Shown here piece after piece: positions 16,567 through 25,923 of a stretch of 29,610 bases of DNA. The notes under the pieces are model-generated. The model had not been told where the DNA came from. It searched no databases and saw only the letters and a list, made by a program, of their open reading frames with translations. Origin of the DNA: a virus (Duplodnaviria; Heunggongvirae; Uroviricota; Caudoviricetes). Made by a program: the position numbers and the translations under genes. The stretch's first letter is position 1, and each line of letters opens with the position of its first letter. The DNA lies in IMG/VR virus record IMGVR_UViG_2541047745_000005, positions 1 through 29,610 of that record; one strand, 5' to 3'.

Positions 16567-16737
16567 ATGTTTGTGAAACCTGTTAAAGGGCGGTCAGTTC
16601 CTGACCCTGCCCGCGGCGACCTTTTGCCCGCCGAGGGGCGAAATGTTGATGAGAACAACTACTGGCTGCGCCGTGAAGCAGCGGGTGATATCCGGCGCGT
16701 GAATGAAAAGGTGAATACCGATGACGATAAGCTTTAA
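16567..16737 (+). CDS. small DUF2635-like protein preceding the tail sheath (not in the supplied ORF track, under 60 aa)
   Basis: My own translation: MFVKPVKGRSVPDPARGDLLPAEGRNVDENNYWLRREAAGDIRRVNEKVNTDDDKL (56 aa), ending at TAA 16735-16737 and overlapping the sheath start at 16721. A small gene in this position is common in Mu-like tail modules. Confidence 0.5.
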   Translation: MFVKPVKGRSVPDPARGDLLPAEGRNVDENNYWLRREAAGDIRRVNEKVNTDDDKL

Positions 16738-18217
16738 CACCATTCCGTCGAATACGCTGGTTCCGATTTTTTATGCGGAAATGGATAACTCGGCGGCGAA
16801 TACTGCACAGGACAGCGGAGCATCGCTGCTGATTGGTCATGCCAATAACGGTGCAGAGATTGTTGCCAACAGTCTGGTGCTGATGCCATCGGCAGACTAT
16901 GCACGCCAGATTTGTGGTGCGGGAAGTCAGCTGGCGCGTATGGTCGAGGCTTATCGCCAGACCGACCCGTTTGGTGAACTGTATGTGATTGCCGTTCCTG
17001 AATCCACGGGCGCGGCGGCAACAGTTACGCTGACGGTGACCGGCGCGGCAACCGAAACCGGCACGGTGAATGTTTATGTGGGACGTACCCGCGTGCAGGC
17101 ACCGGTGACCAACGGCGATAACGTCGCGACGATTGCCAGCAGTATCAAAGATGCCATCAATGCCGTTCCGACCCTGCCGTTTACTGCCTCATCTTCGGCA
17201 GGCGTGGTCACACTGACCGCGCGTCATAAGGGGCTTTGCGGGAATGAAATTCCTGTCAGCCTCAATTACTACGGCTTTGGTGGGGGCGAAGTGCTGCCAG
17301 CGGGCGTACAGATTGCCGTGGCGACGGGTACCGCCGGAACGGGCGCTCCTGTTCTCACCGGCGCGGTGGCTGCAATGGCGGATGAGCCGTTTGATTATAT
17401 CGGCCTGCCGTTCAACGACACGGCCTCCGTTAACACGCTGGTGACCGAGATGAACGATACCAGCGGTCGCTGGAGCTATGCGCGTCAGCTGTATGGTCAT
17501 GTGTATACGGCAAAGATCGGCACGCTGTCAGAACTGGTGACCGCAGGTGACCAGTTTAACCAGCAGCACATTACCCTGGCGGGATACGAAAAAGAGACCC
17601 AGACGCCTGCCGACGAGCTGGCGGCAAGCCGTACCGCCCGCGCAGCGGTGTTTATTCGCAACGATCCGGCACGTCCCACGCAGACCGGTGAGCTGGTGGG
17701 TATGCTGCCTGCGCCGAAGGGGAAACGGTTCACGATGACCGAACAACAGACCCTGCTGTCTCATGGCGTGGCAACGGCGTATGTCGAAAGCGGGGTGCTG
17801 CGCATTCAGCGTGATGTCACCACGTACAGGAAAAACGCTTACGGTGTTGCGGATAACAGCTACCTCGACAGCGAGACGCTGCATACCAGCGCGTATGTGC
17901 TGCGCAAACTGAAATCCGTCATTACCAGTAAGTACGGGCGTCACAAGCTTGCCAGCGACGGTACCCGCTTTGGTCCCGGTCAGGCGATTGTCACACCGGC
18001 GGTGATCAAAGGGGAACTGCTGGCAACCTACCGTCAGCTTGAGCGTGCGGGGATCGTGGAAAACTACGAACTGTTTAAGCAGTACCTGGTTGTGGAGCGT
18101 GATGCCAGCGATCCGAACCGCCTGAACACGCTGTTCCCGCCTGACTATGTTAACCAGTTGCGTGTCTTTGCCGTGGTTAACCAGTTCCGTCTTCAGTATT
18201 CAGAGGAGTCTGCATAA
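16721..18217 (+). CDS. contractile tail sheath protein (Mu L-like)
   Basis: 498 aa; size and position (before the tube gene) typical of myovirus sheath. Confidence 0.8.
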   Translation: MTISFNTIPSNTLVPIFYAEMDNSAANTAQDSGASLLIGHANNGAEIVANSLVLMPSADYARQICGAGSQLARMVEAYRQTDPFGELYVIAVPESTGAAATVTLTVTGAATETGTVNVYVGRTRVQAPVTNGDNVATIASSIKDAINAVPTLPFTASSSAGVVTLTARHKGLCGNEIPVSLNYYGFGGGEVLPAGVQIAVATGTAGTGAPVLTGAVAAMADEPFDYIGLPFNDTASVNTLVTEMNDTSGRWSYARQLYGHVYTAKIGTLSELVTAGDQFNQQHITLAGYEKETQTPADELAASRTARAAVFIRNDPARPTQTGELVGMLPAPKGKRFTMTEQQTLLSHGVATAYVESGVLRIQRDVTTYRKNAYGVADNSYLDSETLHTSAYVLRKLKSVITSKYGRHKLASDGTRFGPGQAIVTPAVIKGELLATYRQLERAGIVENYELFKQYLVVERDASDPNRLNTLFPPDYVNQLRVFAVVNQFRLQYSEESA

Positions 18218-18573
18218 TGGCCCGTATCGGGGGAACCTGTTATTTCAAAATTGACGGTCAACAGCTATCGCTGACCGGCGGCATTGAGGTGCCCATGAAC
18301 AGGACGGTCAATGATGACATCATCGGCCTGGACGGTTCAGTGGACCGCAAGGAAACTCACCGTGCGCCTTATGTCAAAGGGACTTTCAAGGTGCCGAAGA
18401 ATTTTCCGGTGAACAAAATCACCTCGTCTGATGAGATGACTATCACTGCCGAGCTGGCGAACGGTCAGGTCTATGTACTGTCGTCTGCCTGGCTGCACGG
18501 CGAAGCGAACCATAATGCCGAAGAAGGCACGGTTGATCTTGAGTTCCACGGTGAAGAAGGGGATTACCAGTAA
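18217..18573 (+). CDS. tail tube protein (Mu M-like)
   Basis: 118 aa; ATAATG overlap with the sheath stop; conserved order sheath-tube-chaperone-tape measure. Confidence 0.75.
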   Translation: MARIGGTCYFKIDGQQLSLTGGIEVPMNRTVNDDIIGLDGSVDRKETHRAPYVKGTFKVPKNFPVNKITSSDEMTITAELANGQVYVLSSAWLHGEANHNAEEGTVDLEFHGEEGDYQ

Positions 18574-18842
18574 TGAAAGAGCTTGAGTTAAAGAAACCGA
18601 TTACTGCTCATGGCGAGACACTCTCCGTACTGGAGTTTGATGAGCCCACCGGGAAGGATGTCCGCGAGCTGGGGTATCCCTACCAGATGAATCAGGATGA
18701 GTCAGTCAAACTTCTGGCGCATGTGGTGTCGAAATACATTGTGCGGCTGGCGAAAGTGCCGCAAAGCTCTGTCGACCAGATGTCTCCGGCAGACCTGAAT
18801 GCAGCGGCGTGGCTTGTGGCTGGTTTTTTCCTCCAGGCCTGA
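18573..18842 (+). CDS. tail assembly chaperone (short, in-frame product)
   Basis: 89 aa ORF between tube and tape-measure genes; ends just after a TTTTTTC slippery site. Confidence 0.7.
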   Translation: MKELELKKPITAHGETLSVLEFDEPTGKDVRELGYPYQMNQDESVKLLAHVVSKYIVRLAKVPQSSVDQMSPADLNAAAWLVAGFFLQA

Positions 18843-18991
18843 CGGCTGAATACCTCACTGATCGCTTCTTTGACTGCGCCAGCTACTGGCGCATTAATCC
18901 TTTCGAATTGCTGAATATGCCGATCAGTGAAATTCCCTTACTGGTCAGTCAGGCAAACAGGATAGAGCAGGAGAAACGCACACATGGCTGA
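18573..18991 (+). CDS. tail assembly chaperone, predicted -1 frameshift fusion product
   Basis: Slippery heptamer T_TTT_TTC at 18824-18830 in the zero frame; the -1 frame stays open to 18991, overlapping the tape-measure start. Analogous to lambda G/GT and P2 E/E+E'. Confidence 0.5.
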
Positions 18992-20816
18992 ATTTGAGCT
19001 TAAGGCGTTGATCACCGGTGTCGACAGGCTTTCTCCCGCGCTGTCGAAAATGCAAAAGAAAATCCGGGGATTTAAACGCCAGGCGGAAGAAGCGTCACAG
19101 GGTGGGCTGGCGCTTGGGGGCGGACTGGCAGCGGGGCTGACGCTTTCCCTGAAATCTTATGCCGATCAGGAAAACGCCGCTACCGGGCTGAAAGTCGCCA
19201 TGATGGATGCGAACGGTGAGGTTGGAAAGAGCTTTCAGGACATCAATAAACTGGCTATTGGCCTGGGTAACCAGCTACCCGGTACAACGGCTGATTTCCA
19301 GAACATGATGCAGATGCTGGTGCGTCAGGGGATCCCGGCAGAAAACATTCTGGGTGGTGTGGGTAAAGCGACAGCTTATCTTGCGGTACAACTGAAAAAA
19401 ACACCGGAAGCGGCTGCTGAGTTTGCTGCAAAGATGCAGGATGCTACCGGAACGGCGTCAGAAGACATGATGGGGCTGTTCGACACTATCCAGAAGGCGT
19501 TTTATCTGGGCGTTGACGATACCAACATGTTGTCCTTCTTCACTAAAACCAGTTCTGTTCTGAAGATGGTGAACAAGGATGGTCTTCAGGCTGCACAGAG
19601 CCTTGCCCCCATCAGCGTCATGATGGATCAGATGGGGATGAACGGGGAGTCGGCAGGTAATGCTCTGCGAAAAGTTATCCAGTCCGGATTAAGTGTTAAG
19701 AAAATCAGGGACGTCAATAAAGTCATGGCCCGCCAGAAACTCGGGGTACAGCTCGATTTTACTGACGGCAAAGGAAGTTTTGGCGGTCTTGATAACATGT
19801 TTAAGCAACTGGCAAAGTTGCGAAAACTGACTGACGTTAAGCGAACTAATGTACTTAAGGCAATATTTGGTGATGATGCCGAAACCATTCAGGTGGTCAA
19901 TGCGCTGATCGATAAAGGAAAGGATGGTTACGATCAGATCCAGCAGAAGATGAATAAACAGGCCAGCCTGAATAAACGTGTTCAGGCACAGCTTGGTACG
20001 TTGTCCAACCTGTGGGAGGCAATGACGGGGACCGCAACTAACGGCCTTGCAGCTATTGGCGGCGCATTTTCTGGTGACGCTAAAAATATCACGCAATGGC
20101 TGGGGGAGTTGGGGGAGAAATTCACGAAGTTTGCGGATCAAAATCCCCGGGTTATTCGCGGCGTCGTCGGGCTTGCTGCCGGTCTTGCGATTCTGAAACT
20201 GGGATTGATGGGCGTGGGCAGTGCCATCAGTATCGTCAGCAGGATCATGTCGATGACGCCGATTGGCATGATTGCGACGGCGATTGCCTTGGCTGCGGGA
20301 TTAATTATCACTAACTGGGATGTTGTTGGACCTTATTTCAAGAAGCTCTGGGAAACCATTGGTCCTTATTTTGAGGTTGGCTGGGAACTCCTTAAGAAAG
20401 TTTTTGCCTGGTCGCCGCTGGGGATGGTGATCAATAACTGGGGACCGGTTGTTAAGTGGTTTCAGGATATGTGGGACAAGCTGAAGCCAATTATTGAGTG
20501 GTTTACTGACAGTTCCGGTGACACGGTCGATGCCATTAACTCTGCGCAGTGGGGCGCAGGTGCCTATGATGCTTATGGGACGGGAATACCGGCGCGGGGA
20601 TACACACCTTATCAGGCGGTTGATCCGGCTCAGTCAAACAACGCCTCCGGTGCCACAGGCCCGAATCCCTTCATGATTAACAAAGCTTCTGCGCCAAAAG
20701 TTGATGGTGAGATCAAGGTATCTTTTGTGAATATGCCACCAGGTATGCGGGTTATGGAAACGCGATCCAGCGGTATTGATGTCAGCCATGATGTTGGCTA
20801 TACGCGGTTCAGGTAG
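18984..20816 (+). CDS. tail tape measure protein
   Basis: 610 aa; predicted helical with hydrophobic, Gly-rich central segment (VVGLAAGLAILKLGLMGVGSAISIV...); position after the chaperone. Confidence 0.85.
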   Translation: MAEFELKALITGVDRLSPALSKMQKKIRGFKRQAEEASQGGLALGGGLAAGLTLSLKSYADQENAATGLKVAMMDANGEVGKSFQDINKLAIGLGNQLPGTTADFQNMMQMLVRQGIPAENILGGVGKATAYLAVQLKKTPEAAAEFAAKMQDATGTASEDMMGLFDTIQKAFYLGVDDTNMLSFFTKTSSVLKMVNKDGLQAAQSLAPISVMMDQMGMNGESAGNALRKVIQSGLSVKKIRDVNKVMARQKLGVQLDFTDGKGSFGGLDNMFKQLAKLRKLTDVKRTNVLKAIFGDDAETIQVVNALIDKGKDGYDQIQQKMNKQASLNKRVQAQLGTLSNLWEAMTGTATNGLAAIGGAFSGDAKNITQWLGELGEKFTKFADQNPRVIRGVVGLAAGLAILKLGLMGVGSAISIVSRIMSMTPIGMIATAIALAAGLIITNWDVVGPYFKKLWETIGPYFEVGWELLKKVFAWSPLGMVINNWGPVVKWFQDMWDKLKPIIEWFTDSSGDTVDAINSAQWGAGAYDAYGTGIPARGYTPYQAVDPAQSNNASGATGPNPFMINKASAPKVDGEIKVSFVNMPPGMRVMETRSSGIDVSHDVGYTRFR

Positions 20817-20857
20817 TGTACAAAATGATTAATGTGTTTTTGTCTGGCATAATTTGG

Positions 20858-20885
20858 GTTTTCAGCTTTAAGTAGTTAATATAAT
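20858..20885 (+). promoter_or_regulatory. candidate promoter for the cargo gene (-10 TATAAT at 20880-20885, weak -35)
   Basis: Perfect TATAAT about 30 nt upstream of ATG 20916 in an AT-rich intergenic stretch; -35 element not convincing. Confidence 0.3.
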
Positions 20886-20915
20886 CATTCCTTACAAATG
20901 ATTGAAGGGATGATT

Positions 20916-21410
20916 ATGCGTATCTTTGTGTTTTTTATATCTGCACTTTTATCTTTTAACTTGGCAGCGGAAGAGTGTAAGTTCAGCTTTAATGAGTCAG
21001 AATTAATCTCTTCTATAGGTATTGCACCAGTTAAGCAAGAGATAGTAAAGGATGAAGGAATAACTAAGCGTCAATATGAATTCAGGAGAGAATTGTCTTT
21101 TGAAGAGATGCTTAGTGATGATGCTGATGAAAAATATGAGCCGCAGTTTTATATATCTGTTTATAATCCATCATGTCCACAAAAGGTTATTATTTGGTTT
21201 TTCAAGGACAATAAAAACACACAAACTTTAAGTAATGAGGTCCTTGCTGGTAGAGCATTCAAGTATTTAACTGGTGTTAATGAAAGTATTTTTGAAAATA
21301 AAATGAAAAAGTTTTCAAAGGTACAGTCATTTGAGTCCTTTGATGAAAGGACGGACTCTAAATTTATAAAGAGTAGTAATGTTTATTCCATTGATGTTCA
21401 ACTCAGATAG
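20916..21410 (+). CDS. secreted/periplasmic protein of unknown function (moron cargo) with N-terminal signal peptide
   Basis: MRIFVFFISALLSFNLAAEE...: basic n-region, hydrophobic core, AXA-like site (LAA) before acidic residues; GAAGGGA RBS 7 nt upstream. About one-third G+C by manual count of sample lines versus roughly 55-60% in flanking tail genes. An in-frame ATG at 20898 is an alternative start. Confidence 0.6.
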   Translation: MRIFVFFISALLSFNLAAEECKFSFNESELISSIGIAPVKQEIVKDEGITKRQYEFRRELSFEEMLSDDADEKYEPQFYISVYNPSCPQKVIIWFFKDNKNTQTLSNEVLAGRAFKYLTGVNESIFENKMKKFSKVQSFESFDERTDSKFIKSSNVYSIDVQLR

Positions 21411-21428
21411 TAATTGAAAATATTAGAA

Positions 21429-21486
21429 CCCCGCCACATCTTCTGCGATGTAAATAACTGACAAAGCAGATTTGGCGGGTTTTTTG
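21429..21486 (+). terminator. intrinsic terminator after the cargo gene
   Basis: CCCGCCA (21430-21436) pairs with TGGCGGG (21473-21479), followed by TTTTTTG; the intervening sequence has internal small hairpins. Confidence 0.5.
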
Positions 21487-21500
21487 TATCCGGAGTTTAT

Positions 21501-24453: not shown

Positions 24454-24878
24454 TGGAACTGTGGCTGACGGTGAACGGTAAACGCACCTGCGCCAGCGCA
24501 CCGCTGGATCCGCTGACCCGCGCCGTGGTGATTTCCCTGTTTACCTGGCGGCGGGCGGAGCCTGATGACAACGCCGACGTCCCGATGGGATGGTGGGGGG
24601 ATACCTGGCCTGCGGTACAGAATGACCGTTACGGCTCCCGACTGTGGCTGCTTCAGCGCAGCAAACTGACCAATCAGCTGGTGCAGACGGTAAGGGGGTA
24701 TATCCGCGAATGCCTGCAATGGATGATTGATGATGGCGTGGTGTCCCGTATTGATCTGGATATCCGCCGCACCGGGATTAATGAACTGGGTAACAGTATC
24801 ACTCTCTGGCGTCGTGACGGACCGGTAATGATTTCTTTTGATGATCTGTGGAGTGCGATAACGCATGGCGGACAGTGA
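24450..24878 (+). CDS. baseplate protein (Mu gp46 / P2 W-like)
   Basis: 142 aa; overlapping start; synteny. Confidence 0.65.
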   Translation: MMELWLTVNGKRTCASAPLDPLTRAVVISLFTWRRAEPDDNADVPMGWWGDTWPAVQNDRYGSRLWLLQRSKLTNQLVQTVRGYIRECLQWMIDDGVVSRIDLDIRRTGINELGNSITLWRRDGPVMISFDDLWSAITHGGQ

Positions 24879-25923
24879 ATTTCAGCGCCCGACGCTGGCA
24901 GAAAATATCAGTATGCTCCGTAACGATTTATTCGCCAGGCTGGACGTCAGCGACACGCTCCGGCGCATGGATGAAGACGTGCGGGCAAAGGTGTATGCGG
25001 CGGCGCTGCATACGGTTTACGGGTACATCGATTATCTGGCAATGAACATGCTGCCTGACCTGTGCGATGAGTCCTGGCTGGCGCGACATGCTGCGATGAA
25101 ACGGTGTCCGCGCAAGGGGGCCACGGCTGCCAGCGGGTATATGCGCTGGGAAGGTGTCAGCGATGGCCTGAAGGTGACCGCCGGGAGTGTTATTCAGCGC
25201 GATGACCTGGTTCAGTACACGGCAACTGCCGATGCAACCAGCTCCGGTGGTGTCCTGCGCGTGCCGATCGCCTGCTCAAGTGCAGGCGCGGTCGGTAACG
25301 CTGACGACGGTACGTCATTAATCCTGGTCACGCCGGTGAATGGTCTGCCGTCTTCCGGCGTGGCAGATACACTGACAGGTGGATTTGATACTGAAGAGCT
25401 GGAAACGTGGCGCGCCCGCGTCATTGAGCGGTATTACTGGACGCCTCAGGGCGGGGCTGACGGGGACTATGTCGTCTGGGCTAAAGAAGTTCCCGGCATT
25501 ACCCGCGCATGGACATACCGACACTGGATGGGAACGGGGACTGTCGGTGTGATGATTGCCAGCAGCGACCTGATTAATCCCATTCCGGAAGAATCAACGG
25601 AAACGGCGGCAAGACAACATATCGGGCCACTGGCCCCGGTGGCAGGCTCTGATTTGTATGTGTTCAGGCCGGTGGCGCATACGGTGGATTTTCATATCCG
25701 TGTGACGCCGGATACACCGGAAATACGGGCTGCCATCACCGCGGAGTTGCGTTCGTTCCTGCTGCGTGATGGTTATCCGCAGGGAGAACTGAAGGTGTCG
25801 CGTATCAGTGAAGCGATTTCCGGTGCGAACGGGGAATACAGCCATCAGTTGCTTGCACCGGCAGACAATATCTCCATTGCAAAAAATGAACTGGCGGTAC
25901 TGGGGACGATTTCATGGACGTGA
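24865..25923 (+). CDS. baseplate J-like protein (Mu gp47)
   Basis: 352 aa; size and position typical of the baseplate wedge J family. Confidence 0.75.

What the first reader, a model, noticed from the sequence alone, without database searches (positions are those of the whole stretch)
18573..18991. Programmed -1 ribosomal frameshift site (T_TTT_TTC) in the tail assembly chaperone gene
The zero-frame chaperone ORF ends at 18842, but a textbook slippery heptamer T-TTT-TTC sits at 18824-18830, four codons before the stop. The -1 frame is open from there to 18991, overlapping the tape-measure start. This reproduces the conserved G/GT-type frameshift of tailed phages and means the track's separate 60-aa ORF at 18809-18991 is really the C-terminal extension of a fusion protein.
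Basis: partly seen in the sequence, partly recalled or inferred. Interest (0 to 1): 0.5.

Follow-up and report, generated by a model that had tools for sequence, protein, structure and literature searches.

The report
Tail chaperone -1 frameshift site
This is the ordinary, well-known programmed -1 frameshift that lets a prophage make a short and a long version of its tail assembly chaperone from one gene; it is real and strongly conserved, but not new, although public genome records leave it unannotated.

Summary
The window is an SfV-like E. coli prophage with a Mu-like contractile tail. Between the tail tube gene and the tape measure gene lies an 89-aa chaperone gene (18573-18842, Pfam PF10109). 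It carries T_TTT_TTC in phase at 18824-18830. The -1 frame then runs to 18991 and overlaps the tape measure ATG (18984) by 8 nt.

The predicted fusion is 139 aa. This geometry closely matches phage P2 E (91 aa), E+E' (142 aa) and T, where the shift occurs at T_TTT_TTG at the homologous "GF" position.

In the 23 related loci analysed (99% down to 40% protein identity):
- GGTTTTTTY is kept in phase in every one.
- The zero-frame stop moves between 3 and 21 codons downstream.
- The -1 peptide is conserved.
- Most loci lack any start codon for the -1 ORF ahead of the conserved part.
- Codon-position substitution periodicity switches frame at the heptamer.

No canonical stem-loop lies 5-9 nt downstream. 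A long-range helix starting 6 nt downstream is only weakly supported.

Verdict: a textbook -1 recoding site of the P2 E/E+E' type. The inspected SfV, EPP-1, AH07 and RefSeq E. coli records do not annotate it. Low novelty, useful mainly as an annotation fix.

The parts
18217..18573 (+). Tail tube gene (118 aa), immediately upstream. Its stop overlaps the chaperone ATG (TAATG).
   Evidence: PF10618 Tail_tube, E=3.3e-33. Annotated as tail tube protein in SfV.
18573..18842 (+). Zero-frame tail assembly chaperone (gpE-like), 89 aa.
   Evidence: PF10109 Phage_TAC_7, E=1e-16, residues 4-86, so the domain ends at the slip site. phrog_166 tail protein, E=5e-24.
18824..18830 (+). Slippery heptamer T_TTT_TTC (GGT TTT TTC = Gly-Phe-Phe).
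   Evidence: Phase verified. GGTTTTTTY is invariant and in phase in all 23 related loci analysed. Its three wobble positions are invariant in the 11-sequence set, while 73 of 80 upstream wobble columns vary.
18830..18991 (+). -1 frame extension (E'-like): 53 codons plus TGA, read after C18830 is re-read. Predicted fusion is join(18573..18830,18830..18991), 139 aa.
   Evidence: phrog_32181, E=4e-40. Peptide conserved in relatives, with the motif FDCAxYWRINPLELL...QANRI. Third-position substitution excess in the -1 frame.
18809..18811 (+). GTG that the ORF track used as the start of the 60-aa ORF. Not a conserved initiation codon.
   Evidence: The same codon is CTG, TTG, ATG or GTG in relatives, and 14 of the 23 analysed loci have no start codon upstream of the heptamer. 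No GGAG, GAGG or AGGA upstream. Region 18701-18823 has zero-frame periodicity, not -1.
18875..18893 (+). 8-bp hairpin (UGCGCCAG-CUA-CUGGCGCA) inside the extension, 44 nt downstream of the heptamer. Too far away to be a canonical stimulator.
   Evidence: The helix containing it has 93% of cells paired in 12 relatives. It coincides with the conserved peptide CASYWR, so protein constraint may explain the conservation.
18837..18954 (+). Candidate long-range helix: 5' arm 18837-18847 (starts 6 nt after the heptamer) pairs with 3' arm 18943-18954 and encloses most of the extension ORF.
   Evidence: Minimum-free-energy fold of 18824-18970 is -50.2 kcal/mol, z=-4.68. In 12 relatives 82% of cells are paired against 78% in shuffles. 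This helix shows almost no compensatory change, and the structure was derived from the window sequence itself. Not recovered by alifold over 16 wider relatives. Inconclusive.
18984..20816 (+). Tape measure gene (610 aa). Its ATG overlaps the end of the extension by 8 nt, and its AGGAG (18969-18973) lies inside the extension.
   Evidence: PF10145, E=7e-27. Sequence read. P2 has the same 8-nt overlap between E+E' and T.

Best explanation
This is a programmed -1 ribosomal frameshift in the tail assembly chaperone gene of an SfV-like prophage, homologous to P2 E/E+E'.

Proposed mechanism:
- Most ribosomes translate 18573-18842 and release the 89-aa chaperone.
- A minority pause with tRNA-Phe in the P site (UUU, 18825-18827) and tRNA-Phe in the A site (UUC, 18828-18830).
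- Both tRNAs slip one base 5' onto UUU/UUU. Decoding then resumes at CCU (18830-18832).
- These ribosomes continue to the TGA at 18989-18991 and make a 139-aa fusion: ...AGFF-PPGLTAEYLTDRFFDCASYWRINPFELLNMPISEIPLLVSQANRIEQEKRTHG.

By analogy with lambda G/GT and P2 E/E+E', the shared N-terminal domain binds the tape measure protein. The frameshift-only C-terminal domain recruits the tube protein. The fixed low ratio of long to short product is what tail assembly needs.

Shown here: the sequence anatomy, family membership of the N-terminal domain, conservation of the heptamer and its phase, purifying selection on the -1 peptide, and the absence of an independent start. Inferred: that the shift is ribosomal, its efficiency, and the roles of the two products.
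For: 1. Anatomy: T_TTT_TTC is in phase, the -1 frame is open to 18991, and it overlaps the tape measure ATG by 8 nt.
2. Position: the gene sits between the tube gene (PF10618) and the tape measure gene (PF10145). The chaperone is PF10109, 'chaperone proteins E, or 41 or 14', E=1e-16, and the domain ends at the slip site.
3. P2, where the record annotates the -1 frameshift: E 91 aa, E+E' 142 aa, T_TTT_TTG in phase at the homologous ...VVGF position, and an 8-nt overlap with T. A profile comparison aligns the fusion family to P2 E+E' across the shift site (E=7.9e-5, probability 61%).
4. In the 23 related loci analysed (99% to 40% identity, including Derxia, a betaproteobacterium), GGTTTTTTY is in phase in every one. 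The zero-frame stop lies 3 to 21 codons downstream. The -1 frame opens as little as 15 nt upstream in some.
5. 14 of the 23 loci have no ATG, GTG or TTG in the -1 frame upstream of the heptamer, and 3 have none anywhere in the -1 ORF.
6. Mean pairwise difference by codon position is 0.18/0.10/0.54 in the zero frame upstream of the heptamer. It is 0.24/0.15/0.44 in the -1 frame downstream. The three wobble positions inside the heptamer never vary.
7. U_UUU_UUC is a proven -1 shifter in E. coli: 0.12% unstimulated and 7.6% with the IS3 pseudoknot (PMC4066793, supplementary table).
8. The +1/-2 frame closes 7 nt past the stop, so -1 is the only productive shift.
Against: - No protein evidence is available, and the efficiency is unknown.
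- No canonical local stimulatory structure lies 5-9 nt downstream. The 50-nt fold is -6.5 kcal/mol, z=+0.71, and there is no conserved structure across 16 relatives.
- No SD-like element lies upstream. The measured unstimulated efficiency of this motif is only about 0.1%, lower than the few percent typical of tail chaperone shifts. P2 is also reported to lack a structure (PMC3091744).
- The extension does not match Pfam PF06528, the P2 E' family.
- Insertion of one U by RNA polymerase at the T6 run would give the identical protein and cannot be excluded by sequence analysis.
Confidence: 0.88

Rival explanations
1. Transcriptional slippage. RNA polymerase occasionally adds one extra U while copying the T6 run, so a subset of mRNAs encodes the 139-aa fusion in a single frame. 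The protein outcome would be the same, by a different mechanism.
For: The site is a homopolymeric T6 run, or T7 in L022, L027 and L028. An added U gives exactly the same junction. No ribosomal stimulator was found. Runs of seven U or A are under-represented in all frames in E. coli genes, and slippage or indels are one explanation offered (PMC4066793).
Against: From established knowledge rather than a test here, six T is shorter than the runs that give appreciable slippage by E. coli RNA polymerase. In the homologous P2 case the record annotates a translational -1 frameshift at T_TTT_TTG. U_UUU_UUC is an experimentally verified ribosomal shifter.
Confidence: 0.07
2. Independent small gene. The 60-aa ORF 18809-18991 is translated on its own from GTG 18809, or by reinitiation after the chaperone stop, as some annotation pipelines call it.
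For: A GTG exists at 18809. Some records annotate a 60-aa 'hypothetical protein' there. Small ORFs of 53-70 aa of this family appear in protein databases.
Against: The GTG is not conserved (CTG, TTG or ATG in relatives). 14 of the 23 analysed loci have no start upstream of the heptamer and 3 have none at all in the -1 ORF. There is no SD-like sequence before 18809. The stretch 18701-18823 evolves with zero-frame periodicity only. In the window the next in-frame starts (18908, 18917) lie downstream of the conserved FDCASYWRINP core. Only 7 genuine ORFs of this kind are called among 1.84 billion representative proteins.
Confidence: 0.03
3. Decayed gene. A single chaperone gene was split by a one-base indel in the T run, either a prophage pseudogene or a sequencing error.
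For: Homopolymer runs are indel hot-spots. Database entries with an apparently in-frame fusion exist (P0001-P0003).
Against: The same two-frame arrangement is present in all 23 diverse loci analysed. GG-T6-C was found in 76 of 80 viral contigs, and the region matches about 900 E. coli genomes and isolated plaque-forming phages such as SfV, SfI, SfII, EPP-1 and AH07. The in-frame database entries are singletons with garbled stretches typical of assembly indels. The PF10109 domain is complete in the 89-aa product.
Confidence: 0.02

Closest known systems
Phage P2 gpE / gpE+E' (FETUD operon; -1 frameshift at T_TTT_TTG)
   Same: Same Pfam family for the N-terminal domain (PF10109), with the domain ending at the slip site in both. 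A T6 heptamer is in phase at the homologous G-F position. Sizes are 89/139 aa against 91/142 aa. The gene lies directly before the tape measure gene with an 8-nt overlap. No local downstream hairpin is found. Remote profile similarity runs across the whole fusion.
   Different: The seventh base is C (Phe), not G (Leu). The zero-frame stop is 3 codons after the heptamer against 6 in P2. The extension does not match PF06528 and belongs to phrog_32181. The surrounding tail genes (sheath, tube, DNA circulation, baseplate P, gp45) are Mu-like, not P2-like.
Phage Mu gp41 tail assembly chaperone (reported -2 frameshift)
   Same: Syntenic position after Mu-like sheath (L) and tube (M) genes and before the tape measure gene. 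There is a weak PF10109 match. A conserved-looking extension lies between the chaperone stop and the tape measure gene.
   Different: Mu gp41 is 144 aa and matches PF23746. The window protein showed no PF23746 hit at E<=0.01 or E<=1. The Mu extension lies in the +1/-2 frame, consistent with the -2 shift cited in PMC5009743. In the window that frame closes 7 nt past the stop, and the extension is in the -1 frame.
Phage lambda gpG / gpGT (-1 frameshift at G_GGA_AAG)
   Same: Same logic: two products with a shared N-terminus are made from the gene just upstream of the tape measure gene. The long form is made by a low-frequency -1 shift near the end of the short ORF. The ratio is critical for tail assembly (PMC5009743).
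   Different: No detectable sequence relationship was found here. The slippery sequence differs, and lambda has a non-contractile tail. It is the functional paradigm only.

Membership tests
Frameshifted tail assembly chaperone pair of long-tailed phages (lambda G/GT paradigm) | The gene lies between the major tail/tube gene and the tape measure gene. | tested here: met
   Tube PF10618 at 18217-18573 and tape measure PF10145 at 18984-20816. Same order in SfV.
Frameshifted tail assembly chaperone pair of long-tailed phages (lambda G/GT paradigm) | A second ORF overlaps the 3' end of the first in another frame and has no initiation signals of its own. | tested here: met
   -1 frame is open 18701-18991. 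The start codon is not conserved and is absent upstream of the heptamer in 14 of the 23 analysed loci. No SD-like sequence. No -1 coding periodicity upstream of the heptamer.
Frameshifted tail assembly chaperone pair of long-tailed phages (lambda G/GT paradigm) | A slippery sequence lies within the overlap and is conserved at synonymous sites among relatives. | tested here: met
   T_TTT_TTY is in phase in all 23 loci. Heptamer wobble positions are invariant against 73/80 variable upstream wobble columns.
Frameshifted tail assembly chaperone pair of long-tailed phages (lambda G/GT paradigm) | Both the short and the fusion protein are made at a fixed ratio, are required for tail assembly, and are absent from virions. 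| not testable with these tools
   Needs proteomics, western blot and genetics.
P2 gpE / gpE+E' | N-terminal PF10109 (Phage_TAC_7) domain. | tested here: met
   E=1e-16, 61 bits against a 25-bit cut-off, residues 4-86. All 13 aligned relatives match.
P2 gpE / gpE+E' | T_TTT_TTN heptamer at the C-terminal edge of the PF10109 domain (G-F motif), shifting to the -1 frame. | tested here: met
   P2: GTC GGT TTT TTG in phase, with PF10109 ending at residue 85. Window: GCT GGT TTT TTC, with PF10109 ending at residue 86.
P2 gpE / gpE+E' | The frameshift extension belongs to PF06528 (Phage_P2_GpE). | tested here: not met
   P2 E+E' matches PF06528 at E=1.2e-21 (residues 104-139). The window extension and all 13 relatives give no match at E<=1. 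There is only remote profile similarity.
Mu gp41 type (-2 frameshift) | PF23746 Gp41_Mu domain, with the extension in the +1/-2 frame. | tested here: not met
   No PF23746 hit. The +1/-2 frame closes at 18849. In Mu the extension is in the +1/-2 frame.
Canonical -1 programmed ribosomal frameshifting (PRF) signal: heptamer, spacer, stimulator | A stable stem-loop or pseudoknot begins 5-9 nt downstream of the heptamer, or an SD-like element lies 6-17 nt upstream. | tested here: inconclusive
   Locally there is only a 4-bp hairpin (z=+0.71). No SD-like element. No conserved structure in 16 relatives. A long-range helix starting at +7 gives z=-4.68 for the 147-nt fold, but covariation support is weak and biased.

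The most novel reading that the evidence does not exclude
The shift may be stimulated by an unusual long-range RNA structure instead of a local hairpin or pseudoknot. A helix whose 5' arm begins 6 nt after the heptamer (18837-18847) pairs about 100 nt downstream (18943-18954). It encloses most of the extension ORF and ends just 5' of the tape measure ribosome binding site, which could couple frameshift frequency to tape measure translation. The evidence does not exclude this: z=-4.68 for the 147-nt fold, and 82% of cells paired in 12 close relatives. The outer helix shows almost no compensatory change, and the structure is not conserved in more distant relatives.
Probability: 0.12. Interest if true: 0.35.

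Novelty: already known. Interest (0 to 1): 0.15.

Why it matters
The main value is annotation. The fusion product is missing from every record I inspected: SfV RefSeq, EPP-1, AH07 and two RefSeq E. coli genomes. The 140-nt stretch is either left blank or called a 60-aa hypothetical protein. The same locus occurs in about 900 of 5426 complete E. coli genomes.

Annotating it correctly as join(18573..18830,18830..18991) with ribosomal_slippage restores an essential tail assembly protein and removes a spurious small ORF.

It also shows that a tail module which is otherwise Mu-like uses the P2-type -1 shift, not Mu's -2 shift. That is a small point about how recoding type varies within one chaperone family. 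It opens no long-standing question.

Tried and rejected
- The zero-frame chaperone was modelled (pLDDT 79.8), but Foldseek against the PDB gave nothing significant. The HK97 tail assembly chaperone 2ob9 appears only at E=4.2, TM 0.44.
- A profile search of PDB sequences found no solved relative.
- NCBIfam has no model for either part.
- Pfam has none for the extension.
- Xu et al. 2004 (PubMed 15469818) and the SfV genome paper (PMC134923) are not held. I could not check whether SfV was already listed among frameshifting phages. My recollection that the 2004 survey covers Mu-like and P2-like myophages is memory only.
- Full-text searches for SfV plus frameshift mostly returned Semliki Forest virus papers.
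- The in-frame fusion proteins in the database (P0001-P0003) are assembly-error artefacts, not natural fusions.
- Hits P0123-P0125 of the exhaustive search are repeat proteins and spurious.
- Independent initiation, termination-reinitiation and pseudogene readings were each considered and rejected on comparative grounds.

Full report
**What the window is.** The 1084 bases around the finding are 98.8% identical to Shigella phage SfV. They are 97.9-98.4% identical to SfI, SfII and two E. coli phages. The 419-base finding matches 918 of 5426 complete E. coli genomes, one of them at 100%. The gene order is:
- sheath, 16721-18217 (PF04984, PF17482);
- tube, 18217-18573 (PF10618);
- an 89-aa ORF, 18573-18842;
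- tape measure, 18984-20816 (PF10145);
- DNA circulation protein and Mu-type baseplate proteins.

This is an SfV-like prophage with a Mu-like contractile tail.

**The observation.**
- TTTTTTC occupies 18824-18830. Position 18824 is the third base of a GGT codon, so the zero frame reads GGT TTT TTC and the heptamer is phased T_TTT_TTC.
- Three sense codons follow before TGA at 18840-18842.
- The -1 frame is open from 18701 to TGA at 18989-18991. It overlaps the tape measure ATG (18984) by 8 nt.
- Re-reading C18830 gives a 139-aa fusion.
- The +1/-2 frame closes at 18849.

The heptamer string alone is not unusual: 12 copies in the window against 6.6 expected. The context is what stands out. Of 22 in-phase X_XXY_YYZ heptamers in 36 + strand ORFs treated as genes, this is the only one whose -1 frame passes the zero-frame stop. 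It has the longest -1 continuation. It is also the only in-phase slippery motif in the overlap.

**Family.** The 89-aa protein is PF10109, 'Phage tail assembly chaperone proteins, E, or 41 or 14' (E=1e-16). The match ends at residue 86, the second Phe of the slip site. The -1 peptide has no Pfam or NCBIfam family. It matches phrog_32181, a family of unknown function, at E=4e-40.

**Comparison with P2 and Mu.** The P2 record annotates the frameshift: E is 91 aa, E+E' is 142 aa joined at a -1 site, and T starts 8 nt before the end of E+E'.
- P2 reads GTC GGT TTT TTG, a T6 heptamer in the same phase. It encodes the same G-F, and PF10109 ends there too (residue 85).
- A profile of 13 predicted fusions aligns to P2 E+E' over 119 columns spanning both parts (E=7.9e-5, probability 61%). 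This includes FDCAxYWRINPLELL against DVAVIFHWPPSELY.
- The P2 extension is PF06528. The window extension is not, at E<=1, so it is a divergent E' family.
- In Mu the extension lies in the +1/-2 frame. That is consistent with the -2 frameshift cited for Mu in PMC5009743.

So this Mu-like tail module uses the P2-type recoding.

**Comparative test.** I took 23 loci from one-genome-per-species contigs (99% to 40% chaperone identity) and analysed 21 of them together with phages EPP-1 and AH07. The hosts include Edwardsiella, Buttiauxella, Citrobacter, Erwinia, Pantoea, Kosakonia and the betaproteobacterium Derxia.
- Every locus has GGTTTTTTC or GGTTTTTTT in phase.
- The zero-frame stop lies from 3 to 21 codons downstream.
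- The -1 frame opens as little as 15 nt upstream of the heptamer in some loci. Across the family, the permitted shift window therefore collapses onto the heptamer.
- 14 of the 23 analysed loci have no ATG, GTG or TTG in the -1 frame upstream of the heptamer. L017, L026 and L029 have none anywhere in the -1 ORF.
- The window's GTG 18809 aligns with CTG, TTG or ATG elsewhere and has no SD-like sequence.
- The -1 peptide is conserved. A103, W106, P110, R130 and I131 of the fusion are invariant.

In a gapless set of 11 sequences, mean pairwise differences by codon position show the frame switch:

| Region | Frame used for phasing | Pos 1 | Pos 2 | Pos 3 |
|---|---|---|---|---|
| Upstream of the heptamer | zero | 0.18 | 0.10 | 0.54 |
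| 18843-18988 | -1 | 0.24 | 0.15 | 0.44 |

The part of the -1 ORF upstream of the heptamer (18701-18823) follows zero-frame periodicity only. The three wobble positions inside the heptamer are invariant, whereas 73 of 80 upstream wobble columns vary. GG-T6-C was found in 76 of 80 near-identical viral contigs; the pattern was not found in the other 4, which I did not follow up.

**Stimulatory elements.**
- Local folding of the 50 nt after the heptamer gives only a 4-bp hairpin (-6.5 kcal/mol, z=+0.71).
- A consensus fold of 16 relatives finds nothing downstream except part of a hairpin at 18875-18893.
- No GGAG, GAGG or AGGA lies within 33 nt upstream.
- Larger folds are more stable than shuffles (147 nt: -50.2 kcal/mol, z=-4.68). 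They contain a helix whose 5' arm starts 6 nt after the heptamer and pairs about 100 nt downstream.
- On 12 close relatives 82% of cells pair, against 78% in shuffles. There is some two-sided change in an inner helix. The outer helix varies only by losing pairs, and the structure was derived from the window sequence. I rate this inconclusive.
- Distant GC-rich relatives have strong hairpins 1-2 nt after the heptamer, so there is no single conserved stimulator.

P2 and its relatives are also reported to lack one (PMC3091744). In E. coli, U_UUU_UUC gives 0.12% -1 shifting without a stimulator and 7.6% with the IS3 pseudoknot. P2's U_UUU_UUG gives 0.12% and 0.77% (PMC4066793 supplement).

**Rival explanations.**
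- Independent initiation, or reinitiation, of the 60-aa ORF is contradicted by the missing or non-conserved starts and by the periodicity data.
- A decayed or mis-sequenced gene is contradicted by conservation of the two-frame layout in plaque-forming phages and hundreds of genomes. The apparent in-frame fusions in the protein database are singletons with garbled stretches.
- Transcriptional slippage on T6 would give the same protein and cannot be excluded computationally. I consider it unlikely because of the short run and the P2 precedent.

**Public annotation.** SfV RefSeq, EPP-1, AH07 and a RefSeq E. coli genome leave 18843-18983 blank. Other records call a 60-aa hypothetical protein there. 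None of the inspected rows for this phage group is a joined feature. An exhaustive search with the 53-aa extension finds only 7 genuine small ORFs among 1.84 billion representatives. Most of them begin just before the FF encoded by the T run.

**Verdict.** This is a real, strongly supported programmed -1 frameshift site of the P2 E/E+E' type, the textbook tail chaperone recoding. It is not novel in kind. Its practical value is as an annotation correction, with a minor open point about what, if anything, stimulates the shift.

Noticed in passing
window 20817-21500 (ORF 20898-21410, + strand): An AT-rich insertion (GC 0.31-0.33, against about 0.52 around it) lies between the tape measure and DNA circulation genes. 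It carries a 170-aa ORF with a hydrophobic N-terminus, phrog_8976 (unknown function), and no Pfam match. SfV has only a 45-nt gap at this position, so this looks like a moron.
   Followed up: partly
window 18875-18893: An 8-bp hairpin (UGCGCCAG-CUA-CUGGCGCA) sits inside the frameshift extension. The helix containing it has 93% of cells paired in 12 relatives. It coincides with the conserved peptide CASYWR, so RNA and protein constraint cannot be separated.
   Followed up: partly
L022 2750-2770 and L029 2752-2790 (distant relatives): GC-rich relatives (an uncultured proteobacterium and Derxia gummosa) have strong hairpins starting only 1-2 nt after the heptamer (-15.4 and -22 kcal/mol). The enterobacterial loci do not have these.
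   Followed up: no
L111 (phage Mu) 3950-4117: In Mu the conserved-looking extension after gp41 lies in the +1/-2 frame, not the -1 frame. This Mu-like tail module and Mu itself therefore use different shift types within one chaperone family (PMC5009743).
   Followed up: partly
proteins P0001-P0007 (database hits): Apparent in-frame chaperone-extension fusions and odd C-termini in metagenome or long-read assemblies are singletons with scrambled stretches. They are best explained by indel errors around the T run and elsewhere.
   Followed up: partly
protein P0119 (Candidatus Williamhamiltonella defendens): This relative's zero-frame product ends ...AGFFFPG, which suggests a longer T run or a different frame layout at the slip site in that symbiont's prophage.
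   Followed up: no
window 362-368 and 25881-25887: Two other in-phase homopolymeric heptamers occur: A_AAA_AAA in ORF 162-980 and A_AAA_AAT near the end of ORF 24865-25923. Their -1 frames close after 5 and 0 codons, so there is no sign of recoding.
   Followed up: yes
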